From Rozella allomycis CSF55 (taxonomy: Eukaryota), in assembly GCA_000442015.1 (NCBI GenBank), contig KE561216.1, positions 1 to 63,870 of the forward strand: a stretch of 63,870 nt of DNA. Direction: 5' to 3'. Below the pieces are notes generated by a model. The model saw only the letters and a list, made by a program, of their open reading frames with translations. It was not told the origin of the DNA and made no database searches. This document shows, one piece after another, positions 4,432 through 59,704 of the stretch. The stretch's first letter is position 1. Every line of letters begins with the position of its first letter. The position numbers and the translations under genes are program-made.

Positions 4432-5664
4432 ATGTTTGTACTGCGCAATATGCAGCGAGTGCGTCCATGGACCCGAGTATTTTCATTCGCTAAATCGTAT
4501 TCCACTACTGCAAAACTGCCAGTGCCTAGTAGAGTGCCGTTAAGCGATGAAGAGATTCAATCGCTTCAAATGAGTTTAAAGACACATAATCTGAAGCCTG
4601 AAGAGCTGATCAAGGGAGAAGTTGATGTGGTCGATTACCATGAAGCTAAATATTTGGTGGTGGGTGTTGATTATGATGAAGCTGATGAAAAGTTTGATCC
4701 TGCCAAGGTTAGTTTGGAAGAGGCTATGGAAAATATTAAAAAGTAATTAATCGTTGTGGATTTGAATAGGTAATTGAACATTAGTAGATTTGAATAGGTA
4801 ATTGAACATTAGTAGATTTGAATAGGTAATTAATAGCAGTCCTTTTGAATAGGTATGATAATGTTGGAAAGAAATTGTTGTATAATGAAGCAGCTTATCA
4901 TAAATTTTTGGGTGATTTCACTCAAGAATTGATGAGCAGGGGTTATCCAGGTTCAGGGTTAGTTGGTCCGATTGATGAGCATTCAGGTCTTTTCAAGAGT
5001 AATTAAAATAAAAGAGATATAAAAAGAACAAGTGTATGAAAAATTTGCCGAGGCGAAGATTGAATGGTTTAAAGGGGATACAACGTTGCAAAAGACGAAT
5101 AGAATGTTTACATGGTTTGGATTTTTTTCGTATCTTTTAGCAAATCAATATTTTCCTGTTCATGATCAATTGTTGGAACTTTCAGCTTTATTCTTTGCGA
5201 TGAGATTTATGAAGAAATTCTTCTTTGGTGATCAAGTCGTTGCGTCAATCAACACACACAGCAATGAAAGAGAAACGTTTATGAATCCTTTAACGAAACA
5301 GTTTGCTGAAATGGGAAAGAATGCGAATAAATTTAAAACTTTTGCATTGTTTGGAAAGATGAATGAAGATTTGTTTTCAATGATTAAAGAGAATTTGAAA
5401 GAGGAAGGGAAATTGATGGAATTGAAAGAGAAAAATGTTAAATTGACGGAAATTAAATCTCAGCTGGATAGAAGAGCCCGCCAAGATGTTGAAAAGAAGA
5501 GACAAGAAAGAATTGAAATTCTTCAAACTCTTCATGCAAGGGTTTTGGAAAGAATTAAAGATGAATCTTTTGTAAATTTCATAAACTTTAATTAATTTTA
5601 GCAAGAAAAGTTTTTAAGTCAATGTTTATCTGATCTCAAAAATTTGGCTACAAAAGCTAAATAA
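4432..5664 (+). CDS. ATP4: Mitochondrial ATP synthase subunit b (Atp4/ATP5PB), 354 aa as modelled
   Basis: Presequence-like N-terminus; exons 4432-4742, 4853-4998, 5027-5571, 5602-5664; C-terminus EIKSQLDRRARQDVEKKRQER...VLERIKDESFQEKFLSQCLSDLKNL resembles subunit b. Confidence 0.7.
4743..4852 (+). repeat. Intron made of four abutting GT..AG units (27, 28, 28, 27 nt)
   Basis: GTAATTAATCGTTGTGGATTTGAATAG|GTAATTGAACATTAGTAGATTTGAATAG x2|GTAATTAATAGCAGTCCTTTTGAATAG. Confidence 0.9.
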
Positions 5665-13614: not shown

Positions 13615-13701
13615 TGGCAATGTTTTTGTTTTCTTTCCAATTACATATTGATGTAACCCTTGCAATATTTAAAATNATAGGTAACCCTTGCAGTATTTAA
13701 A

Positions 13702-38379: not shown

Positions 38380-38690
38380 GTATCACGCTAAAAATTTCTA
38401 AATGCCCCACTTTTTTCTTTAACTTTTGACATATTATTTCAGCTCTTTGTGCAAGTAGGAAAAGGGACCTCATGGGTTTACTTGGTTCAAAGGTTTGAAG
38501 ACAAATTTACAAATTTAGAAGCAATAAGGTTATCGTGCATTTATTGTGCTTGTTTGAGTGAATGGCTTCTCTTATAACAAGTGACACTGATCAAGTGGCA
38601 TTTGTAACGATAATACTCTCATGATAAAAGATTCTAATTATCTTCGCAAGTGCTAAACTCCAAAATGTAGCGAGGAAAAAATGTGGATAA
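38380..38690 (-). pseudogene. Degraded copy of the AAA/PD-(D/E)xK gene 3' end and its downstream flank
   Basis: ataacaagtgacactgatcaa...acgataatactc...ttatcttcgcaa...aactcca matches 39443-39575; 38380-38500 resembles 39290-39380. Confidence 0.65.
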
Positions 38691-38729
38691 AAGTATATTT
38701 GATCTTAACCAATCTATACGAACGTAAAT

Positions 38730-39000
38730 TTAGTCGCTCCGGGGATTAGAGGTTAAATTGAAACACACCCAAGTTAGTTTATATAAATCAGATTGGAATT
38801 TGGGCGAATGTGCGTAATCATGCTATCAAGTAACAGAGGATATTAGAGAATTTATTCTTGGATCTGACGGCAAGGAAGCTAAGTGTTTTTTAACGGCTTT
38901 GTGTGGGAGCTATTTAAGGAAGACTTGGAAGTCTCTTTGTTAATACTTTACGCTACTGCACATGGAGGGAAAGATAGAGACTGCAGTAAAGTCACAATTT
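38730..39000 (+). mobile_element. Possible highly decayed non-LTR reverse transcriptase remnant
   Basis: Weak RT-like words only (APG; RLCVGAI*GRLGS resembling RPIxVGExxRRL; GKIETAV). Confidence 0.2.
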
Positions 39001-39399
39001 ACAAAAACTCTAATACTTCATCTCCAACTTCCAAGATTGAGCATGCGTCTTGTCACTGAAACGTAAATGCCTTTATTTTTTTAATGTGGCTTATGGGAGA
39101 GCTTAAATTCGAGTGTTTTTCTTGAATGAAATTTGCTACTTGGTACTGTGTTGTTGTTGAAAATTGCTTATTGATGACCAGGATTACCAATGTTAACCTT
39201 TTACTTGATAAACTTAAAAATTAAAAACAATGCTTAGGAATAATTGTCATGTTGAGTTATTACCATCTATTTACAACGATGACCCTTGTCACGCTATCGC
39301 CTATGACATATTATTTCAGCTCAAGAAAACGGACCTCTCTCAGGAATATGGTATTACTTGATTCAAAGGTTTCAAGATTAATAAGAAACCAAAAGGTAA

Positions 39400-39840
39400 T
39401 CACGCGTTTATTGTTGCCTGTTTGATTGAGAGGCGTTTCATATAACAAGTGACACTGATCAAATGGACAGTGTAACCGTTCAAGTCACGATAATACTCGT
39501 TGTCCTGAATTTGGTTGAAAGCAACATCACATTCATGATCAAAGTTTCTATTATCTTCGCAAACGCTGAACTCCATAATGAATACCTTTTTCGTGTGAGG
39601 AAAAGTAATTCGAACATGGCAACGACCTTCAATACCTTCCATTCTTGATTCCACGATTACATTTTGTCCATCATGAATACACGCATGGAAAATGCCAAAA
39701 AACAAACAATGATATGCAGCCACAGGAATTCGAATTTTTTCATGCGATTCACGATTACGCCACTCAATTAGGATTAAATCATGAGCGAACGAGTTAACTA
39801 GAATTTGTCGCATCAACACTTTCAAGGCAGTTTCATCAAA
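39400..39840 (-). pseudogene. Partial duplicate of the C-terminal domain of the AAA/PD-(D/E)xK gene
   Basis: High identity to 39982-40421 with several substitutions; truncated at n 39841. Confidence 0.7.
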
Positions 39841-39981
39841 NATAACCGGAAACAAATAATATCACTATAAATGGTTACTAGCTTGTCAGAGGCCATTCGG
39901 TCAGATATTGCCAGTTTAAAAGGTTAAACATCAACCAAAATAGCATATTATAAAATAATAGATCGATCAAGAATAAGCTAT

Positions 39982-41649
39982 TCACGCGTTTATTGTTGCC
40001 TGTTTGAGTGAAAGGCGTTTCATATAACAAGTGACACTGATCAAATGGACGGTGTAACCGTTCAAGTCACGATAATACTCGTTGTCCTGAATTTGGTTGA
40101 AAGCAGCATCACACTCATGATCAAAGTTTCTATTATCTTCGCAAACGCTGAACTCCATAATAAATACCTTTTTCGTGTGAGGAAAAGTAATTCGAACATT
40201 GCAACGACCTTCAATACCTTCCATTCTTGATTCCACGATTACATTTTGTCCATCATGAATACACGCATGGAAAATGCCAAAAAACAAACAATGATATGCA
40301 GCCACAGGAATACGAATTTTTTCATGCGATTCACGATTACGCCACTCAATTAGGTTTACATTATGAGCAAATGAGTTAACTAGAATTTGTCGCATCAACA
40401 CTTTCAAGGCAGTTTCATCAAACGGATCTTGATTAAAAACTTTGGAGACGTGATCCCCATAGGTTGATTTGGCCGTGTTGTTCATACTAGGAAGGACTTC
40501 GTGGGTCCAATGGTCTCTCAATTCTTTGTTCGGAATCATTAACAACTTTTCACTAAGTCGATAGGTCAGATAGCCTGTCAAGACAAGATAATTGATGATT
40601 TCGCACAATTTCCAATCTGAGTCATAAAAGTCAGTTTGGGCGTGTTTCAATGTAAGTTCTAAGCCATTTCTATCAAGAAGAAGTGTATAGATTTCCATTG
40701 GTAAAAATTGGTGAAGGCCTTTGATAAATTCTGCTATAAATGGTCTTGTTGTTCCAACCCAATAACTTTCATATTTTTTGCCATTCTTGAGCCACGTCAT
40801 TATTGAATAAGGATTTGACACTTTAGAGTCCCTAAAGTAGTACCCATCGTACAAATTCATGGCTTTTTCAACATCCCCTTCGTCAAGCCCCAATTGTCGA
40901 ACTTCTTCCAAAGTAAAACCAAAGCACGAAGAATATCGCATATTAGAATACGAATGGACGACAAAATTGTCAAATTGAGACATCATGATACCATCCTTTC
41001 GTATTTCAAACATTCCCATAACGCAAGCCTTCTCAAGTGAATCATTGCCTTTCAAAGCTGCTGAGAAAAAAGACCAAAAGAAATCTATTGCCTGTTCAAA
41101 AAACCCTTCTCTATGAGCGTTTTCCAATGGGGCATCATATTCATCGATTAACACAATGACTCTCTGCTTGTAATACTTGCGCAAGATATTTATCAAATTT
41201 GAGAGACATCTGCGTGGAGGGTCAGATTTAAGGTCATCACGCAGATACATATCTTTGCCATGATACGTTTGGTCAATAACATCTCTGTGTTCTTCAGCCA
41301 TTCGTTGAACTGCTTGCCATAATTTTGTTAATGTGCTTTCCCAAGTAGACCCAACGACATCCTTCAAATCTAAGTGCACAACAGGATAAGTCCCACAATA
41401 TTTTTCCATTAGTTCCTTTTTCTCGTTTATCTTCAAATCTTTGAACAAACTAGGGTCATTTCCGATACGAAAAAACGATTTCAACATGGACAAGTTCAAA
41501 CTCTTGCCAAACCCTCTTGGCCGAAGAATAACATCAACTTCACACCCATTATTAATAAATTCCTCGATGAAGAGAGACTTATCTACGAAAAATGCATCGC
41601 TTTTTCGATACTGATCAAATGACGACGAGTCAGCCAGCACAGGTTTCAT
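39982..41649 (-). CDS. Bacterial-type AAA-ATPase-like + PD-(D/E)xK (PDDEXK_9-type) protein
   Basis: FFVDKSLFI, Walker A RPRGFGKSLNLSML, Walker B VLIDEYDAP, FGFTLEEV, YDGY, NPYSI, GYLT, IPNKE, A..QI....Y; intronless. Confidence 0.88.
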   Translation of the reverse strand: MKPVLADSSSFDQYRKSDAFFVDKSLFIEEFINNGCEVDVILRPRGFGKSLNLSMLKSFFRIGNDPSLFKDLKINEKKELMEKYCGTYPVVHLDLKDVVGSTWESTLTKLWQAVQRMAEEHRDVIDQTYHGKDMYLRDDLKSDPPRRCLSNLINILRKYYKQRVIVLIDEYDAPLENAHREGFFEQAIDFFWSFFSAALKGNDSLEKACVMGMFEIRKDGIMMSQFDNFVVHSYSNMRYSSCFGFTLEEVRQLGLDEGDVEKAMNLYDGYYFRDSKVSNPYSIMTWLKNGKKYESYWVGTTRPFIAEFIKGLHQFLPMEIYTLLLDRNGLELTLKHAQTDFYDSDWKLCEIINYLVLTGYLTYRLSEKLLMIPNKELRDHWTHEVLPSMNNTAKSTYGDHVSKVFNQDPFDETALKVLMRQILVNSFAHNVNLIEWRNRESHEKIRIPVAAYHCLFFGIFHACIHDGQNVIVESRMEGIEGRCNVRITFPHTKKVFIMEFSVCEDNRNFDHECDAAFNQIQDNEYYRDLNGYTVHLISVTCYMKRLSLKQATINA

Positions 41650-41785
41650 TGTGGCGTAATCATGATTCTTGAACCTAGTTACCTGTATTTTAAGAATTGA
41701 ATTTATGCATAAAAATTTTAGATATTTAGTGACTAGTGTGGTATTTGATATCTAATAGTGGCTGATTGTTTTGAAATCTCATTAC

Positions 41786-44053
41786 ATGGACATCTTTAAA
41801 AAGAACCTTTATGATTTTAATCATTTAAAGAGGAATATTACTAATCCCTGTTTAAACCATGTTTTGGCACAAAATAGCATTGTATCATTCAAAAAGAATG
41901 CAATTTTTGTACAGAGAAGCGATTCAAAGGAATTAACGAAATATGAATCGTTTTCTAACATTATCGATATCATGTATTGCGAATCATATTTATATATAAT
42001 AGAGAAGCTAGAAACGTTTAAATTTCATAAAATAAAATTTGAAAACAACATCTTTAACCCGGATCATGCCGAGGCAGCCGAGTTTGTCAAATTTGAAACA
42101 GATCTGATAAATGAGCACAAAAATTATCAGCAGAGTAATATCAGAGTATACAATAATTGGTTATTCTTTTTCTTTTCAAGTCATGTCATCTGTGCCGCCT
42201 TTGGGATTAATTTGGTACCATTTTCAGTTACATTACCGAGCGAAGTAATGAATGTTTGTCTTTTTAAACACAACTTCATTGTTGCTGATGCAAATCAAAT
42301 TTGGTATGTTGTTGATTCCAATGGAGAAATAAAGTACCGAACCAGAGTTGAACGTACTTTTGTGTTTTTTACATATTACGAAGCGAAACATTATATTATC
42401 GCAGTTACAAAAGAGTGTTCGTTTTTAATATATAATATGAAATACGACAATGAAGGAAATACAATTAGGCAAATCCGACAATGTCATTCCAACACAACAT
42501 TCTGTAGAATGCTCGAACCTAATTCAAAAATATATCTTGACGGGTTGAAATTGAGCACAATAACAGAAACAACAAAAGAATCATTGAACAGATTTCAAAT
42601 TTTGCTCATTATAGATCATACCATAATGCTCATTAACCCTATCACATTTCAAATAGAGGCGAAATTCGAGTTGCCCCAGAATTTAGAATATTCTAAAATC
42701 TTATTATCAGATTTGGAATGCCCATTCGAAGTTGATATATGTTTTTTAAACACTCCGAATAGTGCGATTGAATGCGTGACGATTAGCAAGTCCACAGAAT
42801 CAATGAGATTAGAAATATACGATAATAAATCTAAATGGAATATCAATGAGGCTATGAAACAAGTAAAAATAGCAGAGTCATCTTCTTCAAACCAACGGAA
42901 GACTTCAAATGATAAGCCTGTTACTTTTAAGACAAAAATAAAGTCATCTGGCTATGGAAATAGAGCAGTAAACAAGTCTAAAAAAGAGAAAGCAAAAGCA
43001 AAAGAGAATAGGTCAAAAGTCCATAAAGATCATTTACAGTATACAATGAAAGCGCCAAATCTTACTAATTTTCTAAAGTTTTCATTGCTTGATAAAAGAA
43101 TAGCTAATGAAACCCAATCGGGCAAAGTTACATGTCAAGCATTTTCCAATACAGGAAAGTTTTTTTACACTGACCAAAATTCTTTGATCAAAGGATTCAA
43201 AAGTGAAAAATGCATATCAACAAGCAAAGAGGCAGCATATTTTTGTCAAATGGATTTTACAGAGAATGATAAATTGTGCTTATTGACATTGAGCAATGGC
43301 GACTTCCATCTAGTTTCAACCGAAGGTTTCAATAATGAGCCCCTTATTCAATTTTCATCTAAAATAAAGAAAAAGTCTATTGATTTGAGCGAACCATGTT
43401 TACCACAGACTCGCTTCATATTGAATGATCAATTGCTAATAAATTCGAATGAGAATAAACTGAGTATTTTCAATTACAAAATTAACAAACGCCTAAATGA
43501 TATTGAAAAACCTGTAAATGATCTTAATCATATGGCAGAATCATCTTTTGATCAAAATATCTCTGCATTATCCACATTTTGTCAAGGGTCCACTAAACTA
43601 ATCTTGAACCAATTTTCCAAGTTTGAAAGTACGATAACCCTATTTGATATTTACTCAATGACATCTGAAAGCACGGGCAAAATATCTTATGATGATGTGA
43701 AGTCCTTGAAAACAATCAACTCTAGCCAGTACGTGCATTCAGGAAGAAACTACTTTGGCATTGGGGACATAAGGGTGCCAAATTTCACTGTTCAAGTCTC
43801 ATCATTCTTTTGCCCTTACACAAACAACATGGAATTTATAAGTACTTCATATGACAACGGTCTAATATGTACCGCCAAGGGATCGTCAATTTTGTTGTTT
43901 GACATTCGCAGCATTGAAAAACCTCTAGTTACCAAAACTATTTCAAATAAAGAGTCAATCAAGTCTTTATCCATGTATGATTCGAAATGCATAATTTTAG
44001 CCAAGCATAATTTTAAAGAATGCGAAGTGTTTTATGATTATAGAATTAAATAA
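41786..44053 (+). CDS. WD40-repeat protein, WDR27-like
   Basis: Linker motif DKPVTFKTKIKSSGYG between two beta-rich regions; WD-like ends GDIR, LFDIR. Confidence 0.65.
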   Translation: MDIFKKNLYDFNHLKRNITNPCLNHVLAQNSIVSFKKNAIFVQRSDSKELTKYESFSNIIDIMYCESYLYIIEKLETFKFHKIKFENNIFNPDHAEAAEFVKFETDLINEHKNYQQSNIRVYNNWLFFFFSSHVICAAFGINLVPFSVTLPSEVMNVCLFKHNFIVADANQIWYVVDSNGEIKYRTRVERTFVFFTYYEAKHYIIAVTKECSFLIYNMKYDNEGNTIRQIRQCHSNTTFCRMLEPNSKIYLDGLKLSTITETTKESLNRFQILLIIDHTIMLINPITFQIEAKFELPQNLEYSKILLSDLECPFEVDICFLNTPNSAIECVTISKSTESMRLEIYDNKSKWNINEAMKQVKIAESSSSNQRKTSNDKPVTFKTKIKSSGYGNRAVNKSKKEKAKAKENRSKVHKDHLQYTMKAPNLTNFLKFSLLDKRIANETQSGKVTCQAFSNTGKFFYTDQNSLIKGFKSEKCISTSKEAAYFCQMDFTENDKLCLLTLSNGDFHLVSTEGFNNEPLIQFSSKIKKKSIDLSEPCLPQTRFILNDQLLINSNENKLSIFNYKINKRLNDIEKPVNDLNHMAESSFDQNISALSTFCQGSTKLILNQFSKFESTITLFDIYSMTSESTGKISYDDVKSLKTINSSQYVHSGRNYFGIGDIRVPNFTVQVSSFFCPYTNNMEFISTSYDNGLICTAKGSSILLFDIRSIEKPLVTKTISNKESIKSLSMYDSKCIILAKHNFKECEVFYDYRIK

Positions 44054-44282
44054 ATCAAAATTTTATAAAAAATGTCCACATAAAGCAAAATAATGTATAA
44101 TAAGTTTATGTATTTGTGAGATAAAATTACGCACGCCTCCATATTGAAGACACACTGTCACTTTACCGAATTTATTTATCTTTGTACAATTACATTGCTA
44201 ATTGCTTACTATTATGCTGCTAAGTGCCAAATATTTTTTATTTACCAACTCATTTGTTTGTTTATTTTTGTTTACTTGCAAT

Positions 44283-44751
44283 AATGACACTAACAGCTAC
44301 TTCATCCGCAAAACAAGTTCCATCTACATTAAATGTATACTTGCACGAGCTAGATTTTACTTTCTCCAAGGTGAAAAATGAATACCTCGCACGCAATGTG
44401 ACCACCAAATGCGCACTCTACGCCCACGGTTCCTCTGCCAAAATAATCCCGGGGGATTGCGAGTCCTTGCAAATTCCAGTAAAATGATTCAAATAAAAGC
44501 ATTAGGCAACTACAGAGAAGGAGTTGAAATTGACATTGAAAGATTTATGCGCTGGCAACCTAGGCTGGGTAGCCATCGGGAAAATGGATCTTCTTTTCGA
44601 AAAGGGCGAGATGGAGTTTAAACTTCCAGTCTTTGCCGCACAATGCAATATGAAGAGCCGCATACCGATCATCATCGGACATTGCAAAGTGACTGTGAAA
44701 GTGGCATACACTGAATCAAATGTGCCAAAAGTAATATACATTATTGAATAG
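44283..44751 (+). CDS. Hypothetical beta-rich (C2-like) protein
   Basis: Two ORFs joinable through a short GT..AG intron (~44479-44505); C2-like pattern LKLTLKD....IGK....IGHCKVTVKV; may continue into the next ORF. Confidence 0.35.
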
Positions 44752-44798
44752 CATAGACGATAAATAATTGCCGTTTTGATTGGAAACAGCCAAATCAG

Positions 44799-45623
44799 AT
44801 GCTGAGCGATGTAAAACAAGCGTTGAAGTTGAGAGAATCAATGCTTGACATAAGAGACTCCCTTGTTGAATTCGTTGAAAGTAAAGCATTTTTTAAATTT
44901 GCAAAAGATGTTGCAAATGACACGGAATCTGAAACCTCAGGGTTTGGGGAATTTGAAGAATTCCATTCTGGCTTTAGAACAGAAGCAGGAAGCTTTATCG
45001 AGCTTGATCCTGAGAAGGATATCGTGACCATTAGTGATGCAAGGGAGCATTGTATCAGAGAACATAGTATCATAGAACAGGTGACGATACCGAACCCCGC
45101 CAGTGACAGTCTAGGCGACAGAATGGTACATATGCTTAATGAATGCCCTTTTGGAATGAACTCGTTTCACTCTCCCCTTTTCATGAATATGATTCTCGAA
45201 CGGACCAAGGGGGTTCATAGAAAAGAAGAAGGGTTAAGATTTAAAGAAAATGTACAAGTTGAATATTTGTCGGTTGAGAACACCTCGGTTGAAATTGTTC
45301 CAGTTGAAATTGTTCAAGTCAGCAATACTCCAATAAAAGTTGAGCATACTCCAATAAAAGCTGAAATGGTTCCTGACGAAAAAGTTCAACTAAAAGTTCC
45401 ACTTGATAATGCCTCTGTCCAAAATACCGTAAAAGGCACTTTTTTATTGAAAAAAGGTTGTAAAAAAGGAACAATTCAGTATCCGAAACCTTTACAGGTT
45501 TTGTTCTTCCACACATCCGTTTGTATTGAATTCATTTCATTCTGTTCAGTTGATGAATATAATCAACAAAGCGAATGCCGCACGAACATGCACTCCCATT
45601 TATGTGAAAAAAATTTAATTTAA
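44799..45623 (+). CDS. Hypothetical protein
   Basis: 274-aa ORF with no recognised family. Confidence 0.45.
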   Translation: MLSDVKQALKLRESMLDIRDSLVEFVESKAFFKFAKDVANDTESETSGFGEFEEFHSGFRTEAGSFIELDPEKDIVTISDAREHCIREHSIIEQVTIPNPASDSLGDRMVHMLNECPFGMNSFHSPLFMNMILERTKGVHRKEEGLRFKENVQVEYLSVENTSVEIVPVEIVQVSNTPIKVEHTPIKAEMVPDEKVQLKVPLDNASVQNTVKGTFLLKKGCKKGTIQYPKPLQVLFFHTSVCIEFISFCSVDEYNQQSECRTNMHSHLCEKNLI

Positions 45624-45969
45624 CTATATGTAAATAAAAATCAAGTACTTTTAAAGTGTTACCACTTACCAGTCACGTACTTATTATGCTAGAAATGGAA
45701 TATCCGTCGAAGACGATATTGTAATCGTATTCAATAAGAATTAGTACGAGGTCCCAGGTGTACTAATTCTCTTATTCCTTAAAACATATATGATTGATAC
45801 TATTAAATGCATGTAAACTTAAACCAAATCTCAATAACTTCATTAAAAAAACTTTATTAACCTTTAATTTGAAAAACCGAAAACAACTTGCCCAAATCAA
45901 CCACACTCCTCAANTTCAATAATATAAAACAATACCCTCAAACAATAAACTTTATTAACTTTCAACAAT

Positions 45970-48900
45970 TCAACCCTTAATTTGAAAAACCGAAAACAAC
46001 TTGCCCAAATCAACCACACTCCTCAAATTAGCTCTCATCACACTGTCCACAAACATCCCAGTACTTTTATAGCATCCATTCAAATCAACCAAACACTTTT
46101 CAAACTGTACGATAGTCTTTGCAAAGCTTCGTTTAAGTTTATCTGGATTGAAGAGGTAGCTGAAATACGCCAGCTGGTTGTACAATGCCGCATCCGATAC
46201 CTATAAAAGTAAAAGATATTTGTTACTGTGGGATACAGACGGCCGCCGCACAGTGCTGATGGACACTTGTACCCATTAACAGACAGTTTATTAGTTTTCA
46301 GGCCGCATTGCGAGTTGTCGCAGATGTAGAATGAACGGTAGTATTGTCTGATAGAGTTTCTAATTGCCGCGACTATTTGGATGTACACGAGCTGTGGAGA
46401 CAAGAGTGAAGAACAGTTTGGACATTCGTAGCCGCTAATCACGTCTAGTCACATGTAAAGGTTTGATTTACTTGAATCTTTCATTTTGATTATTCCAGTG
46501 AATTCAAACGGCTTTGAACATTTGGAACAAGTGAACGCCAATTTCTTTACATTGGCAAAACGATCAATGGAATTTAGAGAGAATGTTTCTTCTTCATTTT
46601 CATTTTGGACTGAATGGTATTTTGAGCTGTCTAGCCCTAAACAGTCGGCCAATCTAGCAGAATCAGTGCCTTGGATGTGTTGACATAATCTAACAATTGG
46701 AGGCAAGATTTGTTGTTTTAGGTACCATTCAATATCAATAGATAGATTTTGTTTTTTTATTTCATCCAAGGAAAAGGCTCTTTCAGATAAATTTGAAGAT
46801 TCAGATTTGCAGATAGCATAAGCTACTGTGTCACCAATTCTAACGTTTAATCCTTTTTGTTTCATTCTGATAGCCACTTGAACGTGTGGTTGTGATTTAG
46901 CATCAGAATATTCTTCTGGTTGTTTTGTTAGACCTTTTATCAAGAGAAGTTAGGGAGTTACCTGTGATTAACTATACTCAATTAATTATACCTAACATTA
47001 ACTATAGTGAACTCGTTATACCTAACATTAATCATTCCAACTGATGATACCTAACATCACCCAACTTCAACTCATATACCTTTGGTTATTAAATACTTTT
47101 CAATATCAATTCTCCCACCCCTCATCTCATTCGCCACTGATCCCAAATAGCTATGCACAATAGCCACCAAATCTTCTCTATTCAGCCCACTCAGAATCTT
47201 ATCAAGAATAAAATTAGACACCTGCACAGACAACTCGCTCCAATCTCTCCTCACCAGATCCAGCCCTTTAGTCTCAATACTAGTTTTAAACTTGTTATTG
47301 TCAATCTCATTCAACACCAATGCTGCGTATTTCTTCTTTTTCAGCAAGAGCAAGTTTTTGAATATTCCGTCCAATTCGATTTCTAAGAGTTTGTATTTTT
47401 CATTAACTGATTTTTTAACCATTTGGGCTATTTGCTTTGCTTTGAGAACATCTTCTGTGCCAGTGTAGATCATGATAGAGTCTGTGTCACCGTAGATAAC
47501 ATCCAAGTGACATTGTTCCATGGCTAATTGGACTGTGTTTTGTAGAATTTCTCTTCCTTTTGAAGTAATCAACATTGCCAATGGTTTAGCATAGAAGCGT
47601 GAATGTGAGAAACCTAAACAACCGTACATTGAATTGGCTGTTAATTTTAATGCTTTCTGTCTAATGTCTAATTGAATTAATTCATCCTTGTTTTTATTGT
47701 CTTTCATTAACCCTTTCACTTGTCTTCTTCTCTGAACCAAATTAGCAATCAACTTTGGCAAAATACCTATTTTAAAGGAGGAGATATTTGTTACCTATTT
47801 TATAATGTTATACCCCTTTGAATTACCTATTTTATAATGTTAAACCCCTTTGATTACCTTGATCTAAATTCTTTTCAGGAATCTCTGGCAACATATCACT
47901 CTCCAATGCCTCCCTCTCCACCGTAGTAAAACAAATATTATATTCTTGTATAATAGACGGATACAAACTATTAAAATCCAACAACAACACAATCTTATCA
48001 TAGAACCCTTTCACTAAACTTTTTTAAACTATGTTACCCTTTTTAGGCTCCAACACCAACCCCCCAGAATACGATGGCTTCTTTTTTCCAACTTTTTTGT
48101 CATCCAAATCTTTAAACCCAAATTGCTTGTCGGGAACTATAAACTTGTTCTTGTGGAATTCATGCAACAACAAAAACTCGTTTCTCTCTGCTCTAGCACC
48201 ACACAATGTTCTCGACCACAAATTTCCAGCTAGATTAGTCAATTGCTTTGTTAATGGCAAGGCCATCAATTTAAACATTAAAGAAACACTCAGGATTGAA
48301 TCTTGCACACATTGCTTAAGAAATGATAATAAATTTGTTGAATTCTTGTAATAAGCTGGAATCTTTTCAAAATCAATTTCCATCTTTTTTATTCCCAGTT
48401 GAGATTCAGACAGACATGATAAAGAATAACTTTTAGATCTTAATAAATCTTTTGATACCAAATAAGTATCACAAACTATTCTTCCAGAAACTATTTGTCT
48501 CTCTCCAAACGTTGACTCACTCATCCCACCAGCTCCACTTTGCAGTTTAGGCCACACAGATCTCTTCAATCTACCCAATCTACTCCAAGTGTCTATTTTA
48601 TTATATTTCATTCTATGCAATAACACATCCAAANAATCAAACCCTAGAAAATTATGCCCAACTAGAATATCTGGATCTGTTCTATGAATAAACGCTGTTA
48701 AATAATTCAACAAACTTCTCTCATTTCTACACAATTCAATTCCAATCATCTTTTCCTTTTTTATTATCTCTTCAAACTTGAATGGAAATGGCTTATTATC
48801 CAACTGAACAACTGCTACATTGCTCTGACTAGCTTTAATCCCTTCATTTCTCTTGTCTACATGCACATTCTTATACACCAAAAATGAAACTGAAACAATC

Positions 48901-50431
48901 TCATTCACATTCTTTTCTCTATTCAATATAGTCTTCACTCCCAAACTCAACACTGTCATCGGTGGAGGTAAAAAGTTTCCTTGCATCACCTTCACTTGTT
49001 TAGGATCATCAATCACAAACTCTTCTTTACACCATGTCACCTTTTAATCAACTTCAAATTAATTACATTCTTTTCACTCTTCTTGGCATTCTCAACTGTA
49101 ATCCAACATGGTCCCATCATCTTTCGCTTCAACAGAAAATGCTCCATCGCCGTTGTATTCCCTCCAAAGATTCTTTCAAACGTCTTTCCCTGCAAATCAT
49201 TAGGCAACGCTGCATTACTAAATGGATAAACAACCTTTCAAACTTAACTCTCTTTAATTACCTTTAAATATTCAGCTTCTTTTGGCACATTTTCTACTTC
49301 AAATGCATACTTTCTCTTCACAGTTTTACATTTAAACTTGTTAATTTTATATCTAGGCGCAATCTTTTGAAACTCGTTATAAACCATCCCCATGTTCACT
49401 TTAATCTCCTCCCCTTCTTCAACTACACTCTTCTTGGGCAGCAAATACACATTCCTCTTAATCTCATTCACAGTCAAACACACACTCACATACTCTTGCT
49501 TCTCATTCAACATCTTTCCAAACAAATAAAGAGTTCCATTGCCCTTGTCATACAAATCTATCCAATACATCTTCAAACACTTTTCTGTTGAATTAACCCC
49601 CTCTTCTATCTCCACCTTTTCTTCTTCTCCATTCAACACATATTCATCCAAATCCATCTCCATCTTCAATTCATCTTCTTCCTTTACTTCTTTAACGTAA
49701 TTATTATCTTGACCATCTTGAACATATTTACTATTTTGGACCTCACTCTTCCCTTCTATTTCCTCCTTCACCTTAACTTTAACTTCATCAACCTGCATCG
49801 CATCAAAATCATCATCAAAAGCTCCACTCTCAAACAACTCTTGCAACTCCTTCTCCTCCTCATTCTCCTTGTCCTCCTCTTTAATCTTCTTCACTCCAAC
49901 CTCCTCCAAACTAAACAACTCACTCCCACCAACACTCACCCTCTTCCTCCCCAAACTCTTCCTCTCAACCTTCTTCTTCCTCTTCTCCCTCCTCTTCCCA
50001 CCCTCACCCACATTCTCCTCGCTCCACAGCGAATTCAACACATTTACATCATCCTCCCTACATTGCTCCTCCTACCTCAATCCCTTCCAATCCTCTTACA
50101 CTCTTCTTGATCCGCTGCACATTCGTAAACATCTCGCTAATCTTCTTGCCCTTCTTCTCCCCCCTCGCCTTTTTCTCCTCCCGCTTGCGCTCCTCGCCAA
50201 GCTCCCATCCATCAACCACATCGTCAGCATACCCTTGGCCGTCATCGTCCACAACGAAATCATCAACAAGCCGCTGCCGCTGGATCACTCGGTACTCGTC
50301 CTCATCAACCTCATCGTATATCCGCTTCTCTTCAGCCTATAAAGCTCAAAGAGAATATTTACCTGGTATTCCTTGAGGCGACTCGATTTGTCCTTTTTTA
50401 AAAGTGCTTTCAGCGTCTCGCGTCGGGACAT
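45970..50431 (-). CDS. POL1: DNA polymerase alpha catalytic subunit
   Basis: [51 protein letters not shown]-terminal zinc fingers. Confidence 0.97.
46934..47079 (-). repeat. POL1 intron made of five abutting GT..AG units (29, 29, 30, 30, 28 nt)
   Basis: 146 nt between ITK-G and G-LTKQPEEY; every internal junction is AG|GTA. Confidence 0.9.
47767..47857 (-). repeat. POL1 intron made of three abutting GT..AG units (31, 32, 28 nt)
   Basis: 91 nt between DQ-G and G-ILPKL; internal junctions ATAG|GTAA. Confidence 0.9.
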
Positions 50432-51001
50432 GACAAGGGTGCAATTCAAGCAAAGTGACTTTTAAAATTTAAATGTTTTAATGACAAGATTGAGGTTTAT
50501 TTGGTTGAACAAATTGAAATGTGTTTCAAGAGAAACCGTTTCCCACAAGAGCTCTTGTGAATATTTGGTGAAATTCGTATGCGGTTTGCGAATTTCCAAG
50601 TATCCATTCCCAGGGTTGATCGCGATTCCTATGACGCGCACGGAGGATTGCGTGGCCGAAAACGATTACTTGATTTAATCATTGAACGAGTGGCCCTACT
50701 TTGGTTGCTCAATTTATGGAGACCTCATCGGTCACTTTCAATTTCAATTTCATTCTTCAATTTCATGTGTTGCATAAGGGAAAAATGTATATGATTATTT
50801 AATACTTGGAGTTTCGGTAGAATACATCTAGTCTATATGCTATAATTCGGTGATCATCGTTTTGTTTTTTGTTCTTAGCTTTTGAATATTAAGCCGAATT
50901 AGCCAATCTTAATAAGAAGTAAAAAATATAATCAATGCGTACAACGACAAGTTAAATTACTTTTCAGCACACTATTAAAAAACCTTGTTGCTACGCAATG
51001 C

Positions 51002-53054: not shown

Positions 53055-53251
53055 ATTTCTTTTTCAAATTTTCATATATTGAGTTCAGGAAAGCGCTTGC
53101 TGCTGTATATTCCTTCAAAAACACGGAGCACAGACGAAGTTTTTAAGTCGTACCATTAACATCTACGATTTTGATAGAAATTGTAGTTCTAACTAGCGGA
53201 AGTTCGAAAATTCAAAATTCATGATCTGGGTTTACTAAGCCACAGAAAAAA

Positions 53252-56233
53252 ATGAAGAACCTAGGGGTCAAGATCCTGATTGCTATCTTCTTGTCTTTCA
53301 GTTCTCAAAATGCTATTTTAATGCTAAAAGAGAAAAGATTAACGAATAACTCTGTTGACCTACTTCCTTCAAAATCTTTTGAAGATCTAGCTATGAAGGG
53401 GCTCGCGCTGTGCTATCTCCAACGAGCTGATGAAGCATCTCTGATGTTGAACCGACTTATCACCGAAAGCAACAGAATATCGTTGCTTGAGATCAAAAAA
53501 GCTGCCGTGCCAGTTGAAACGTTCCTCTCAATGACTCAATCTGAAGTAACTGATAAGAATTGTATGATTCCTTTTGCCACTTTTATCCATGACAAAACAA
53601 GATCTTGTTCAATTGCAAAGTACATATTAACTTCCAACTTGAATGCATTTGCACCTCAAAGAGCGTTGAATATAGTGAATGCATGTATGAAGTCTTCCAA
53701 AGACACTCAGTGGTATTTTTTAAAAACAGAATTGCTTCAATTAACAAATGATGAAAGTCTTGTGAGAACGTTCTATAAAGATGTCTTCTTGCCCGGTATT
53801 AAAGCCATTGACAATAAGAAGATGCTTCTTAACTTTATTGTCGCGTCTTTTAAATTGGCTGCTTTTCATATTCACAAATTTAACATTTTTCAGACTGCTT
53901 CTAAAGAACTACAAGAACTTTGGATAACTGAGGGATTTGAACACTACGCTGGGGAATATGTTAATGGACTTTATAATTTGTTAATAGGGAATGCCGATAT
54001 TGCACGAAGCTATTTCTTTAAAATTAGAGAAACCAATCTTGTTACACGTTTCGGAAATCAAATTCTTGCATACGAAGCCTACGTAAAATCTTTAATCAGT
54101 GATCAATCTCTCCGATTCAATGATATTTTCTATAACCTTATTAATGGCCAATACAGCGAAAGTTTTTTGAACAAGGGGTTTGATTATTTAGCAAAGGCTA
54201 TTCCTTCAAAGTATAATTTCGAAGATGTAGTCGACGGTATGGTCAAAATTATTTCGGAAGCGATGCTTTACAAAACAGAGAATATTACAAAAGCGTTATT
54301 AGATGTGTTCGGTTCTTATTTAGAGTCTAATTTTTATGAAAATGTAAAGACGGAAGTTGAGAAAAGAGTTTGCCAAAATGGACCTCAACCCTTCTTTACT
54401 GAGAGTTGTTTTACTGAATTACCAAGCATTCATTCTATTGCTCAAGTTCCCCAGGTGTATTTCTTCTCGAAAGTATTTGGGCCTATATACTCTGTCCCAT
54501 TGTTTGAAAAGGAAATGAATGTGAAGGCTGTGCATGATTTCCACGCAATAAACAAAAAGACTGCCAAAATGTTAGACAATGCTATAGTTCATTTACTATT
54601 AAAATCAAGAAACTTGGCTAAAATCTTTGACACGCAATACTTCAGTACAAAAGAACTTAATGAAAAATGGGCTCAACAACTGAAGCATCTTTCTTTTGTG
54701 ACCGATCCAATATTTGCCACTGAAAGCCGTTATTTCTATGAAAGAGTTCTTACTGATGCAGGCCGTAATCTTTTATGTAACGATATTCGAAGTTTAAATC
54801 AATTTTCATCTATATATATGTCTGCGTTGTATTTCTGTGACAAAAAGAGTTTTATCACATATTACGAAGAAAATATAAAAACTTCTAAAGGAGAAATCAA
54901 AGATTTGCTGCGTTATCTATACTTTTTGACAATGAAGTTTCAAAACAAAATCGTTACATTTCCTGAGCTTGGAATATTTTCTTTCGCGTTTACAAAATAT
55001 AGAAATATTGATGAATACGCTGATTCAGGAAAATCTGGTTTGATTTATTCTTATTTGGCATGCATTGAAGCGACTACAGCGGCAACCATATACAGTGATA
55101 AGGAAACATTGGAAAAATGGTTGAAAGTCTTTATCCAGCACGGAAATGAGTATATAACTTTAAACATCATGCAAGTCGCTGATTATCTCATTCCAAAACT
55201 TTTGTCACGTACTAAAGCATTTCCGGAGATGAATAACTTGGTATTAGAATCAATTGTTTCTTTTTCTTTCTATTCACCATTTGAAGATGAGAAGAAATTC
55301 AAAAATGTTCATTTTAACTCGGGCTTTGATGTGGCAGGAACATTGTCGAAATTGAGGAATGACTTGTTAAGCCCAAGCTTTCTGGTGAGAAATATGCTGG
55401 AAAATGACAATGATATAAATTGGCCATTGATGTCAGAAGCCTTTAGATATTATCAATCTTTCTTGTTGATGGAAACTGACTTGTATTTAAAGAAATATGT
55501 TGAAAGCCACAAGAATGGATGGAAGGCTCAAAGATCCTGTATCATTAATATTTTTCAAGTCGGGAAATTGGAAAAAGCTGAGTTCAATATCTTGTATCCC
55601 GAACAATATAAGAAGGAAATATTTGAATTGATGATTTTAAATAAATATGACATGAACAGAATGGAGGAGTTCAATTTTTTGCGCCCATTAATTTTTGATA
55701 AAAGAAGAGAAATGATAACCGATCAAACGTCAAATACAAAGAATTTTTTCGGTGGATACGAAACAGTTCATGTAAGTGGTTTTGGCTACAGTCAACCTAA
55801 ACGAAAAATTTTAATAAGCAAAGTAAAAAGAACATCAATCAAAGCTGCCACGAAATCGATTGATCGTTTGAGACAGTCAATAGGCCTCAAAAATGAACCC
55901 GCTGAAGAATGTCGAATTGGAAACATATACGTATTAAAGAATCTCAAAGAAATTGATTATTTGAACCAAAATTTTATTGATTATATGTTCATGAATAAAG
56001 ATAGTTCTTACTGTAGAGGGCACTATGACAAGATACAATCAAGAAATGGTTTGTTCAAAATGAAATACAGAGATGATTTTATTCAGCCTATGAGAATCGT
56101 TTTTGGAAGAGTTGGTCTTGATATTTACATCATAAAAATGGATAGAAGACAAAACGACAAAGCTTATCGCAACTTGGCTAAACTGGATATAACGGAAGGA
56201 TTTGTCAATGTGTTTGATATTATAATTGAATAA
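53252..56233 (+). CDS. Large secreted helical protein with C-terminal RelE-like domain (paralogue A)
   Basis: Signal peptide; 993 aa intronless; C-terminus LFKMKY...MRIVF...IYIIKMDRRQNDKAY. Confidence 0.8.
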   Translation: MKNLGVKILIAIFLSFSSQNAILMLKEKRLTNNSVDLLPSKSFEDLAMKGLALCYLQRADEASLMLNRLITESNRISLLEIKKAAVPVETFLSMTQSEVTDKNCMIPFATFIHDKTRSCSIAKYILTSNLNAFAPQRALNIVNACMKSSKDTQWYFLKTELLQLTNDESLVRTFYKDVFLPGIKAIDNKKMLLNFIVASFKLAAFHIHKFNIFQTASKELQELWITEGFEHYAGEYVNGLYNLLIGNADIARSYFFKIRETNLVTRFGNQILAYEAYVKSLISDQSLRFNDIFYNLINGQYSESFLNKGFDYLAKAIPSKYNFEDVVDGMVKIISEAMLYKTENITKALLDVFGSYLESNFYENVKTEVEKRVCQNGPQPFFTESCFTELPSIHSIAQVPQVYFFSKVFGPIYSVPLFEKEMNVKAVHDFHAINKKTAKMLDNAIVHLLLKSRNLAKIFDTQYFSTKELNEKWAQQLKHLSFVTDPIFATESRYFYERVLTDAGRNLLCNDIRSLNQFSSIYMSALYFCDKKSFITYYEENIKTSKGEIKDLLRYLYFLTMKFQNKIVTFPELGIFSFAFTKYRNIDEYADSGKSGLIYSYLACIEATTAATIYSDKETLEKWLKVFIQHGNEYITLNIMQVADYLIPKLLSRTKAFPEMNNLVLESIVSFSFYSPFEDEKKFKNVHFNSGFDVAGTLSKLRNDLLSPSFLVRNMLENDNDINWPLMSEAFRYYQSFLLMETDLYLKKYVESHKNGWKAQRSCIINIFQVGKLEKAEFNILYPEQYKKEIFELMILNKYDMNRMEEFNFLRPLIFDKRREMITDQTSNTKNFFGGYETVHVSGFGYSQPKRKILISKVKRTSIKAATKSIDRLRQSIGLKNEPAEECRIGNIYVLKNLKEIDYLNQNFIDYMFMNKDSSYCRGHYDKIQSRNGLFKMKYRDDFIQPMRIVFGRVGLDIYIIKMDRRQNDKAYRNLAKLDITEGFVNVFDIIIE

Positions 56234-56659
56234 AGAAATAATTTAAAGTTATTAGAAATATTAATATTTTTTAATTTTATGCGTTTCGTTTGATTCCATG
56301 TTTCCTATCATCAAAGATCAGACACTAAAATATCTATAATCTTTATCAAGGTCAAATTTAGTAATTTCTAGTCTGGCTCTGCTGATATTCAAAAGTATAT
56401 TCAAAATATTTCATACTCATACATCGTATCCTGTTTGAACAATTTCTTGTGATACACGCGCAGCGCACTTGCCACTTGTTGCTCTTAAAGAGAATTATGA
56501 ATGTATTATATCATTATAGTGCTTTGATTACAAAATTTGGAAAAAAATCCCAGATATATTATGGAACAATGATAATTTGATTTTGAAATTTACATCACTG
56601 TAAACGCGGTTTGCAAGTCTTCTTCTCTTCATTTGCAGGATTATGGCTGAGATCTATTC

Positions 56660-59600: not shown

Positions 59601-59704
59601 TTGTTAAAGTTGGACGCAGAGTGAACAACAAGGCCTATAGACAGCTGGTGAATTTTAAAAAGGGAGATGAATTTATAAATGTAGCGTCCCTTTTCAACAA
59701 TTAA
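56660..59704 (+). CDS. Large secreted helical protein with C-terminal RelE-like domain (paralogue B)
   Basis: Signal-like MFPFTWVACWILFVSVTLQ; colinear with paralogue A; C-terminus LCSIKF...YRILF...VYIVKVGRRVNNKAY. Confidence 0.8.
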   Translation: MKFKFTKIQTCAPKPLKKMFPFTWVACWILFVSVTLQNNLNALNEAIRKNTINMNIVKSLPSRSLEQKFTKGLGYCYIGENEEARSIVSNFNDNAKKYLSDKKFLSQVEQFLVKAANKLEIHDCLVPYLKFVIKSSSSCALIKAGLQIKFDLYSMADTLTMVNFCLQNHKSDPRWYLLKFKIFTQTTDVSKLGELYKEVLGPAAIYVKDKNELLNIFFQCLKLASTYLPRHNIFNDRITDLQTIWHQHGFENTADNFIKGIYHLVIGSIDSSRSFFHKVYFTNDIKGLMYSEAEALTSYVKSFVADKTLTFTDIFQSIIKEFTDKEKLKASLEAISLYIKEETLQIQDVVYGLINMAKESQAESDEEKLRDYLRILGEFLDPETFDTIKKSVDENLCLENRESFFAQSCFEQIYITGVEPGVFHETTFFELDMGQDIHNAMNNYAYHLFNESRNRNNGVVTNDALVRLLVNAISFDFFFTNIGINGMKEDWFLPMVIIDKIGKDLSTGGPILFERTLTEGGRKVLCESVDARTFFGRYGALYATYVYFCDDDAFFEFFYNERRVQASDYDYFLTYLYFLKRTLNGQKIDFPGMELFSFFFTKYKSLELPVDEQDFEDDYKSIAPFLMCIEVTTAAYAFIDDDQFVFKWLLTFVQHGNELITLQLLEKDDQAFRNLLLKVVSVPEYTIFLLEALGSSAFFAPVMNIERYKSAGIPFGPHIEAKQRELRKIIIPNEVVKRVLDSVEEINWDILVDVFRLYPETYIENQDVFLTKIIKEMKKGLRLQRACIIYVFQVGKISSGAEFNKTFPPERIEYIFNKMIDNKFNLENMAEFSFLNSYVNDYRAKLIQQKLEYQSTRVLSFSRVYSNFDYGLQAISKGTSNVSKVLKKTLPRPRAKLTAESSTSNNNAPKIGNVYVLSNAPGLDNLTKELIHELFFDPAGKYARGMYKRLNACNLCSIKFKDEAVQPYRILFGTEGNDVYIVKVGRRVNNKAYRQLVNFKKGDEFINVASLFNN

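What the first reader, a model, noticed from the sequence alone, without database searches (positions are those of the whole stretch)
46934..47079. POL1 intron is five back-to-back mini-introns with zero-length exons (recursive splicing)
Seen on the minus strand: AAAG|GTATATGAGTTGAAGTTGGGTGATGTTAG|GTATCATCAGTTGGAATGATTAATGTTAG|GTATAACGAGTTCACTATAGTTAATGTTAG|GTATAATTAATTGAGTATAGTTAATCACAG|GTAACTCCCTAACTTCTCTTGATAAAAG|GTCTA. The units are 29/29/30/30/28 nt, the typical intron size in this window, and removing all 146 nt restores [12 protein letters not shown]. The unit interiors have diverged while every AG|GTA junction is kept, which argues for selection on the junctions rather than a neutral repeat. 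Inference: this spliceosome removes only ~30-nt pieces, so long introns persist as ratchet chains. Established recursive splicing involves very long animal introns; I know of no report of chains of minimal introns.
Basis: partly seen in the sequence, partly recalled or inferred. Interest (0 to 1): 0.9.

Follow-up and report, generated by a model that had tools for sequence, protein, structure and literature searches.

The report
Tandem arrays of duplicated mini-introns
In the DNA polymerase alpha gene of the fungus-like parasite Rozella allomycis, one intron site holds five complete 28-30-base introns placed end to end with no exon between them, most likely made by repeated duplication of a tiny intron, and how they are spliced out is still untested.

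Summary
On the minus strand, 46934-47079 parses into five GTA...AG units of 29/29/30/30/28 nt. Only removal of all 146 nt keeps the DNA polymerase alpha frame open and colinear with fungal homologues. The window is a Rozella allomycis CSF55 contig whose ordinary introns are 26-29 nt.

The feature recurs. The same gene has a three-unit chain at 47767-47857, and an ATP synthase b gene has a four-unit chain at 4743-4852 with two identical units. Chains of 4 or more units appeared in none of 200 shuffles. A scan of 80 other POL1 loci (422 kb) found one chance chain of 3.

Units 1-4 of the reported chain are diverged tandem copies. The 3'-most unit is unrelated. Other fungi carry a single 33-69-nt intron within one base of this site. 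The best reading is in-situ tandem duplication of a whole mini-intron, giving abutting introns that can each be spliced on their own.

Stepwise (recursive) removal is plausible but untested, because no RNA data were available. Zero-length-exon recursion is already known in two yeasts, for 336-375-nt introns. I rate this a new variant of known kinds.

The parts
45970..50431 (-). POL1 (DNA polymerase alpha catalytic subunit) gene, from the ATG at 50431 to the TGA at 45970-45972. It has nine intron sites.
   Evidence: homology and colinear tblastn; the model gives a CDS of 4017 or 4041 nt with a single terminal stop once all introns are removed.
46934..47079 (-). Chain A, the reported feature: five abutting mini-introns, 146 nt in all, in phase 1 inside a Gly codon (G|GT).
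47051..47079 (-). Chain A unit 1 (29 nt, GTAT...TTAG).
47022..47050 (-). Chain A unit 2 (29 nt). Its interior is 71% identical to unit 1.
46992..47021 (-). Chain A unit 3 (30 nt). Retaining it gives an in-frame stop.
46962..46991 (-). Chain A unit 4 (30 nt). Retaining it gives an in-frame stop.
46934..46961 (-). Chain A unit 5 (28 nt). It is unrelated to units 1-4 (interior identity 40-50%, at the chance level), is C/T-rich and contains CTAAC. It is possibly the ancestral intron of the site.
   Evidence: That it is ancestral is inference.
47767..47857 (-). Chain B in the same gene: three abutting mini-introns of 31/32/28 nt, in phase 1 inside a Gly codon (...NLDQG|ILPKL...). Units 1 and 2 have 93% identical interiors. 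Unit 3 is unrelated.
4743..4852 (+). Chain C in a mitochondrial ATP synthase b-chain gene: four abutting mini-introns of 27/28/28/27 nt. Units 2 and 3 are identical.
   Evidence: period 28, 100% matches; a later exon of the gene, ORF 5023-5595, hits PF05405; only full removal leaves an open frame. No homologue spans this junction.
50337..50362 (-). Single POL1 intron, 26 nt.
50054..50099 (-). Ambiguous POL1 intron site. It may be one 46-nt intron, a 24+22 pair, or only the 22-nt piece. Two of these three readings were tested: removing all 46 nt (the same deletion as the 24+22 pair) and removing only the 22-nt piece. Both keep the frame open.
49235..49261 (-). Single POL1 intron, 27 nt.
49041..49066 (-). 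Single POL1 intron, 26 nt.
48008..48037 (-). Single POL1 intron, 30 nt.
46445..46471 (-). Single POL1 intron, 27 nt.
46201..46226 (-). Single POL1 intron, 26 nt. It shares an identical 13-nt 5' end with chain B unit 3.

Best explanation
Chain A is a tandem array of complete, individually competent minimal spliceosomal introns at one intron site of the Rozella allomycis POL1 gene.

Origin (inferred). A single short intron stood at or next to this site. Exact tandem duplications of whole-intron length, followed by unequal exchange or slippage between copies, then added more units. Duplication may have been helped by the short direct repeat formed when AG|GT at the donor is matched by AG|GT at the acceptor-exon border.

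Why it is tolerated (follows from the sequence). Every unit carries its own GTA donor and AG acceptor. Any donor can therefore be joined to any downstream acceptor, and what remains is again a run of whole units. Every splicing path ends in the same mRNA, and any retained unit hits a stop codon.

Removal (inferred, not shown). In a genome whose introns are almost all 26-29 nt, donors most likely pair with the nearest acceptor. The 146 nt would then usually leave in several ~30-nt reactions, in no obligatory order. When the 5'-most unit goes first, this is recursive splicing at a zero-length exon. Once internal sites are used, selection keeps them, because losing one site strands its partner. 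No upper size limit of the spliceosome is needed.
For: Units 1-4 are tandem copies: TRF gives 76-77% matches, and interior identities are 60-71% against a null mean of 52% and a 99th percentile of 69%.

The feature recurs on the same contig. Chains B and C are present, with 93% and 100% identical neighbouring units. The only TRF arrays of period 28-32 in the window are these three loci.

The chains are far beyond chance. No chain of 4 or more units arose in 200 shuffles. Only one chain of 3, on the strand opposite the POL1 match and with no sign of repeat relatedness, was found in 422,436 nt of 80 other POL1 loci.

Only full removal gives an open frame: 1 of 32 combinations for chain A, 1 of 8 for B and 1 of 16 for C. 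A fungal Pol alpha is colinear across chains A and B.

The ordinary intron size is 26-29 nt. The public gene model of the neighbouring dyskerin gene also uses a 26-nt intron.

At the chain A site, 18 of 79 metagenomic POL1 loci have a 33-69-nt gap. All 12 that I inspected carry one ordinary intron there, one base upstream.

Splice-signal columns are kept better than interiors (P=0.014). All five units share T-R-A-T at positions -9 to -6. In all 3 chains the downstream exon begins with GT.
Against: There is no RNA evidence of any kind. No RNA run holds the locus, and the one RNA run laid gave only 36-53-nt low-identity scraps. The order and number of splicing steps are therefore inference.

Duplication does not explain the unrelated 3'-most units of chains A and B.

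The GT-microhomology argument is weak. Three of the 6 unambiguous single POL1 introns are also followed by GT, although only 4 of 42 are in the noisier window-wide set.

The conservation test rests on four units, and the chain was noticed because its junctions are intact.

No whole genome was held, so the frequency of chains and the existence of long undivided introns in this organism are unknown.
Confidence: 0.55

Rival explanations
1. One-step excision. The 146 nt is spliced as a single ordinary intron, from the donor of unit 1 to the branch site and acceptor of unit 5. The internal AG|GTA sites are silent or rarely used relics of the duplications, so the feature is a minisatellite inside an intron.
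For: Spliceosomes in general handle 146 nt easily. Close relatives carry 120-152-nt introns (Mitosporidium and Paramicrosporidium S23; passage read). Other fungi have one 33-69-nt intron at this site. A 46-nt single intron is one possible reading at 50054-50099.
Against: The internal sites match the local consensus as well as the outer ones do, and they are nearer to each other. Signal columns are better kept than interiors despite 29-40% interior divergence. No convincing undivided intron above about 35 nt emerged in the window: the count of longer candidates is flat with length. No RNA structure brings the ends together (z = -0.66).
Confidence: 0.2
2. This spliceosome has a hard upper limit near 30-35 nt, so any longer intervening sequence can exist only as a chain of units and must be removed by obligatory recursive steps.
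For: All securely placed POL1 introns are 26-32 nt. Candidate intron lengths in the window peak sharply at 26-29 nt. All three longer intervening sequences found parse completely into units. Junctions are conserved.
Against: The evidence is one 64-kb contig only. Origin by duplication explains the chains without any limit. Junction conservation is also expected without a limit. The site at 50054-50099 may be a single 46-nt intron. There are no RNA data.
Confidence: 0.15
3. Assembly artefact, or a coding insert. The repeat is a mis-assembly, or some units are translated.
For: Contigs of DNA run X2 end at 46928 and 47077 and at 47741 and 47854, at the borders of chains A and B. The DNA runs also hold a second, divergent form of the region.
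Against: The units of chain A differ from one another by 29-40%, which a collapsed or expanded repeat would not produce. Two DNA runs from different samples show normal depth in the bins over both chains, and no contig skips units (tables 2 and 5). Every unit causes a stop if retained, and homologues have no extra residues there.
Confidence: 0.03

Closest known systems
Recursive splicing at zero-nucleotide exons. Known cases: Drosophila ratchet points (10.1101/006163, abstract start seen); the S. pombe SPNCRNA.445 intron (10.1101/226894, passages); C. neoformans BOT1 (10.1101/224170, passages).
   Same: An acceptor lies directly against a donor (AG|GT) inside an intervening sequence that is wholly absent from the mRNA. 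Removing the upstream piece joins the exon to the next donor.
   Different: Known cases have one or a few ratchet points in introns of 336-375 nt (yeasts) or many kilobases (animals), and the pieces are unrelated in sequence. Here, four internal junctions cut 146 nt into minimal-size introns that are copies of each other. Each piece is a complete intron, so no order is imposed. Stepwise removal is not shown here.
Intron gain by tandem genomic duplication or repeat expansion. Sources: the Rogers model (recalled); Hellsten 2011 (PMC3265369) and potato RdRp (PMC4974935), both seen only as listings; Cryptococcus CNN00420 (PMC2395259, passages).
   Same: New introns arise in place by local DNA duplication, with AG|GT at each new border. 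Identical copies point to recent slippage or unequal exchange.
   Different: In those cases the duplicated segment contains exon sequence, so exons lie between the new introns. Here the repeat unit is exactly one intron and the exons between units have zero length. No unit resembles the flanking exons.
Stwintrons and complex intervening sequences of fungi (Lipomyces; PMC7138796, abstract and passages).
   Same: A fungal intervening sequence made of more than one U2-type intron and removed by consecutive reactions, with small duplications of donor elements proposed as the origin.
   Different: In a stwintron the inner intron interrupts a splice signal of the outer one, so the order is fixed. 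Here the units abut, and each keeps its own intact signals.
Ultra-short introns of ciliates, microsporidia, dicyemids and myxozoans (PMC13644364, abstract and passages; PMC5014332, abstract). PMC6349667 also remarks that R. allomycis S23 has two putative introns of about 30 nt.
   Same: GT-AG introns with a sharp size mode below 30 nt.
   Different: In the passages I read, none of these papers mentions end-to-end arrays. The words 'tandem' and 'recursive' occur 0 times in PMC13644364.

Membership tests
Recursive splicing at zero-nucleotide exons | An acceptor is immediately followed by a donor (AG|GT) inside the intervening sequence. | tested here: met
   There are four internal AG|GTA junctions in chain A, two in chain B and three in chain C.
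Recursive splicing at zero-nucleotide exons | The whole intervening sequence is absent from the mature mRNA. | tested here: met
   The evidence is indirect. A homologue is colinear across chains A and B, and only full removal gives an open frame. No RNA was seen.
Recursive splicing at zero-nucleotide exons | Stepwise removal is shown by intermediates, junction reads or lariats. | not testable with these tools
   No RNA run holds the locus. The RNA run that was laid gave no usable contig.
Recursive splicing at zero-nucleotide exons | The host intron is long (hundreds of nt to many kb in all described cases). | tested here: not met
   The chains total 146, 91 and 110 nt.
Intron gain by tandem genomic duplication | The units are tandem copies with detectable sequence similarity. 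| tested here: met
   TRF, and the identities. This is not true of the 3'-most units of chains A and B.
Intron gain by tandem genomic duplication | The duplicated segment includes exon sequence containing AGGT, so the new intron is partly exon-derived. | tested here: not met
   No unit aligns to the 40 nt of either flanking exon better than shuffled units do. The best case was 67 of 500 shuffles reaching the observed score.
Intron gain by tandem genomic duplication | Presence/absence differences between close relatives or alleles. | tested here: inconclusive
   DNA contigs break at the chain borders, and a second divergent form is present, but unit numbers could not be read. No closer relative than about 60% protein identity was found among 80 metagenome loci.
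Stwintron (spliceosomal twin intron) | An internal intron interrupts the donor, branch site or acceptor of an external intron. | tested here: not met
   Each unit begins with an intact GTA and ends with an intact AG. The units abut and are not nested.
Minimal (ultra-short) spliceosomal introns | GT-AG borders and a narrow length mode below about 35 nt. | tested here: met
   Unit lengths are 27-32 nt. Of 42 candidate single introns, 34 are 26-29 nt long.

The most novel reading that the evidence does not exclude
Rozella's spliceosome works only on pieces of about 24-35 nt, so introns in this lineage can lengthen only by adding whole units. Intron lengths would then be quantised genome-wide in multiples of about 28 nt, chains would be removed by obligatory iterative splicing, and exact tandem duplication of mini-introns would be a major ongoing source of new introns in the sister lineage of Microsporidia.
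Probability: 0.15. Interest if true: 0.85.

Novelty: new variant of a known kind. Interest (0 to 1): 0.6.

Why it matters
If confirmed with RNA, these arrays would be a natural experiment on two open questions.

The first is how new introns arise. The arrays show whole-intron tandem duplication caught at several ages: identical copies, 93% identical copies, and copies whose interiors are 60-71% identical.

The second is what sets intron length in organisms with minimal introns. The same site offers the spliceosome a choice between ~30-nt steps and a 146-nt step.

The arrays also bear on annotation. Gene finders cannot place zero-length exons. No protein containing the 334-residue POL1 exon of this organism appeared in the protein collection at 183-2000 residues, while the neighbouring dyskerin protein was found at 100% identity.

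Three chains on one 64-kb contig suggest that many more exist in the roughly 12-Mb genome.

Tried and rejected
**RNA evidence.** No RNA holder was listed for 45900-50450. I laid 31001-51000 with two DNA runs and two possible RNA sources. X11 laid nothing. X12 gave 15 pieces, and the 8 listed are 34-53 nt; 8 of the 15 were under 90% alike. This says nothing for or against expression.

**Whole genome.** None is held for this window, so no genome-wide length or periodicity test could be run.

**False or doubtful chains from the scan.**
- 9779-9830 is one 29-nt intron preceded by coding sequence.
- 13653-13709 is a 28-nt tandem duplication spanning the likely PRMT start codon. It is not a secure chain.
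- The other two-unit rows were not pursued, apart from 50054-50099, which is reported as an ambiguous intron site. About 3.7 two-unit chains per shuffle are expected by chance.

**Long undivided introns.** A scan for GTA...AG candidates of 37-199 nt gave 337 candidates spread flatly over length, with no enrichment. The method is too noisy to exclude them.

**RNA structure looping out the chain.** The fold energy was -31.7 kcal/mol against a shuffle mean of -29.6, z = -0.66. Rejected.

**Exon-derived origin of the units (Rogers type).** Rejected.

**Ciliate or alternative genetic code.** This was my first guess from the intron size. I dropped it because the POL1 model has no in-frame stop codon under the standard code and every organism name among the 120 listed homologues is a fungus.

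**Rfam.** There were 0 matches in the window.

**Public POL1 protein of this organism.** It was not found at 586-2000 residues or at 183-585 residues.

**Close relatives in metagenomes.** The best of 80 loci is 60-62% identical in protein, which is no closer than named fungi.

**Literature.** Searches for tandem, abutting, contiguous or back-to-back introns found no paper on chains of minimal introns. Searches on Rozella introns gave only the remark in PMC6349667. The Rozella genome paper is not held, and supplements are closed. Either could hold intron statistics that I could not see.

**Earlier findings of this scan.** Four look-ups found nothing relevant.
Full report
**What is there.** Read on the minus strand, 46934-47079 is ccaaag | 29 | 29 | 30 | 30 | 28 | gtctaaca. 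Tandem Repeats Finder sees the same stretch as a period-30 array (3.1 copies, 77% matches) and a period-29 array (2.2 copies, 76%).

The host gene is the catalytic subunit of DNA polymerase alpha. A 334-residue exon finds fungal Pol alpha proteins at up to 55% identity, and every organism name among the 120 listed hits is a fungus. A Basidiobolus Pol alpha aligns across the site with no residue missing or added...IEKYLITKG | [18 protein letters not shown]....

With this chain, a second chain and seven other short introns removed, the gene reads open from the ATG at 50431 to the TGA at 45970-45972 (1338 or 1346 codons). Of the 32 possible retain/remove combinations of the five units, only removal of all five leaves an open frame.

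**Whose genome.** An ORF for dyskerin at 22556-23584 is 100% identical to a protein that a source names Rozella allomycis CSF55. That protein lies on a contig of 63,870 nt, the length of this window. The public model of that protein uses a 26-nt intron.

Candidate introns supported by open reading frames on both sides peak sharply at 26-29 nt, begin with GTA(A/T), and are about 71% A+T. A paper on microsporidian introns remarks in passing that R. allomycis S23 has two putative introns of about 30 nt (PMC6349667, passage read). The units of the chain are therefore ordinary introns of this organism in size and signals.

**It is not unique.** The same gene has a second chain at 47767-47857. It has three units of 31/32/28 nt, again inside a Gly codon (...NLDQG | ILPKL...), and it is colinear with the homologue. 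A mitochondrial ATP synthase b-chain gene has a four-unit chain at 4743-4852 (27/28/28/27 nt) whose two middle units are identical. For that chain the support is reading frame only.

In the whole window, the only tandem arrays with periods of 28-32 nt are these three loci. With units of 24-34 nt the window has chains of 3, 4 and 5 units. In 200 dinucleotide shuffles the longest chain was 3 in 2 shuffles and never reached 4. As an outside control I scanned 80 POL1 loci from metagenomes (422,436 nt, both strands). That gave one chain of 3, G+C-rich, on the strand opposite the POL1 match, with no sign of repeat relatedness among its units.

Two other rows of my first scan did not hold up. 9779-9830 is a single 29-nt intron. 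13653-13709 is a 28-nt duplication over the likely start codon of a PRMT gene. One POL1 site, 50054-50099, can be read as a 46-nt intron, as a 24+22 pair, or as a 22-nt intron.

**Anatomy and origin.** In chain A, units 1-4 are related. Their interior identities are 60-71%, where shuffled interiors give a mean of 52% and a 99th percentile of 69%. They share GTAT, AGTT and TTAATGTTAG-like ends. Unit 5 is unrelated (40-50%), is C/T-rich and contains CTAAC.

Chain B has the same layout: two units with 93% identical interiors, then an unrelated C/T-rich unit at the 3' end. Chain C has two identical units flanked by two 70-78% relatives. The three chains thus show copies of very different ages, which fits a continuing process of exact whole-intron tandem duplication followed by unequal exchange or slippage.

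No unit resembles the flanking exons, so the classical model in which duplicated exon sequence becomes the intron does not fit. In all three chains the downstream exon begins with GT. With the acceptor AG, this makes a short direct repeat of the donor junction, which could both favour slippage and make off-register duplications harmless. The argument is weak, however. Three of the six unambiguous single POL1 introns are also followed by GT, against 4 of 42 in the noisier window-wide set.

**Comparison with other organisms.** A search of metagenome contigs with the 228-residue exon between the two chains returned 80 POL1 loci. None is closer than 60-62% protein identity. At the position of chain A, 18 of the 79 loci where both flanks aligned have an unaligned stretch of 33-69 nt. 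In all 12 that I read, this is one ordinary GT-AG intron (in one case GC-AG) lying one nucleotide upstream, between the residues that align with K and G.

Chain A therefore sits at, or one base from, an intron site that is widespread in fungi and singly occupied elsewhere. The position of chain B was not occupied in those 12 loci; where an intron was evident it lies roughly 17 codons upstream (read from the sequences). This comparison supports 'a short intron that multiplied' over 'a long intron that was cut up'.

**How it is probably removed.** Every unit has its own donor and acceptor. Joining any donor to any downstream acceptor therefore leaves a run of whole units, so all paths converge on the same mRNA. 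Any unit left behind meets a stop codon. That makes such duplications nearly harmless, which explains why they can accumulate.

In a genome whose introns are almost all 26-29 nt, pairing of each donor with the nearest acceptor is the expected behaviour. I therefore think removal in several ~30-nt reactions is the most likely course. If unit 1 goes first, this is recursive splicing at a zero-length exon in the strict sense. This step is inference.

No RNA run holds the locus. The single laying of reads gave nothing usable from the one RNA run. The chain has no unusual RNA structure (z = -0.66).

**Selection on the junctions.** Among units 1-4, all 5 signal columns (GTA, AG) are invariant, against 9 of the 25 other columns (hypergeometric P = 0.014). 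All five units share T-R-A-T at -9 to -6, a possible branch site.

This is modest, post hoc evidence that the internal sites are under constraint. It does not show a size limit. Once internal sites are used at all, loss of one site leaves its partner to produce dead-end products, so they would be kept in any case.

It remains possible, since I found no secure undivided intron above about 35 nt in the window. But it rests on one contig, and my scan for longer introns was too noisy to be a test.

**DNA support.** Logan contigs of two DNA runs from different samples cover the region at normal depth, and no contig skips units. Contigs of run X2 end at 46928 and 47077 and at 47741 and 47854, which are the borders of both chains. 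Both runs contain many contigs only 90-95% like the window.

A second divergent form is therefore present in the sequenced material. It may differ at the chains, but the tables were cut and I could not read that. The divergence between units of chain A rules out a simple assembly expansion.

**What is known.** Recursive splicing at zero-nucleotide exons is established in Drosophila and mammals.
- a 336-nt S. pombe intron (10.1101/226894, passages);
- a 375-nt C. neoformans intron split into 210 + 165 nt (10.1101/224170, passages).

Fungal stwintrons are nested introns removed in fixed order (PMC7138796, abstract and passages). Expansion of an intron-containing coding repeat created new introns in Cryptococcus (PMC2395259, passages).

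I found no paper describing end-to-end arrays of minimal introns or discussing Rozella intron arrays. The Rozella genome paper is not held and supplements are closed, so a mention there cannot be excluded.

**Verdict.** The structural reading (abutting mini-introns with zero-length exons) is sound. The evolutionary reading changes from 'long introns preserved as chains' to 'mini-introns multiplied in place'. The mechanistic reading (recursive, stepwise removal) is likely but unproven. It is a new variant of known kinds, of real interest to people who study intron origin and minimal introns, and it is directly testable with RNA from infected cultures.

Noticed in passing
window 45800-50299, minus strand: The POL1 coding strand is G-rich and C-poor in patches. 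The + strand GC skew is -0.45 to -0.86 over 48500-50299, -0.575 at 47000-47299 and -0.74 at 45800-46099, but about 0 to +0.15 at 46100-46999 and 47300-47599. The related units of chains A and B share the G-rich make-up of the exon upstream. The unrelated 3'-most units share the C/T-rich make-up of the exon downstream. The cause is unknown.
   Followed up: partly
window 47767-47794 and 46201-46226, minus strand: Chain B unit 3 and the last POL1 intron share an identical 13-nt 5' end and 74% interior identity, above the 99th percentile of shuffled pairs. This may be copying of an intron between two sites of one gene.
   Followed up: no
window 13653-13709, plus strand: A 28/29-nt tandem duplication lies just upstream of a PRMT-type arginine methyltransferase ORF (Pfam hits). 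Both copies parse as GTA...AG units, but the second contains the likely ATG. It may be a 5'-UTR intron pair or simply a duplication of the start region.
   Followed up: partly
window 45615-45915: The last ~17 codons of POL1 and the sequence after them are repeated just downstream of the stop codon, next to an N at 45914. Contigs of both DNA runs replace 299 nt here with 32 other letters (tables 5 and 5c). The window probably carries an assembly duplication or one of two alleles.
   Followed up: no
window 31001-51000: DNA runs X1 and X2 differ from the window at 388 substitution places and 52 indel rows in 20 kb, and many contigs are only 90-95% alike. A second haplotype or strain is present in the sequenced material. 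The 21 single Ns of the window may mark such sites.
   Followed up: no
window 53225-56233, 56651-59704, 60394-63477, plus strand: Three tandem intron-free ORFs of about 1000 residues have no Pfam family. The first two are 30% identical over their whole length (E = 9e-144). They look like a lineage-specific paralogue family.
   Followed up: partly
window 39982-41751, minus strand: A 589-residue ORF has AAA-ATPase_like (PF09820, E = 3e-37) and a weak PDDEXK_9 nuclease match that falls below Pfam's cut-off (24.1 bits against 25.5). DNA depth over 40339-41672 is about twice that of its neighbours in both DNA runs. It may be a multi-copy or mobile gene.
   Followed up: no
POL1 gene, window 45970-50431: No protein containing the 334-residue POL1 exon of this organism appeared in the protein collection at 183-2000 residues, although the neighbouring dyskerin protein is there. 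The public annotation may lack or mis-model this gene, perhaps because of the chains or the N at 48634.
   Followed up: partly
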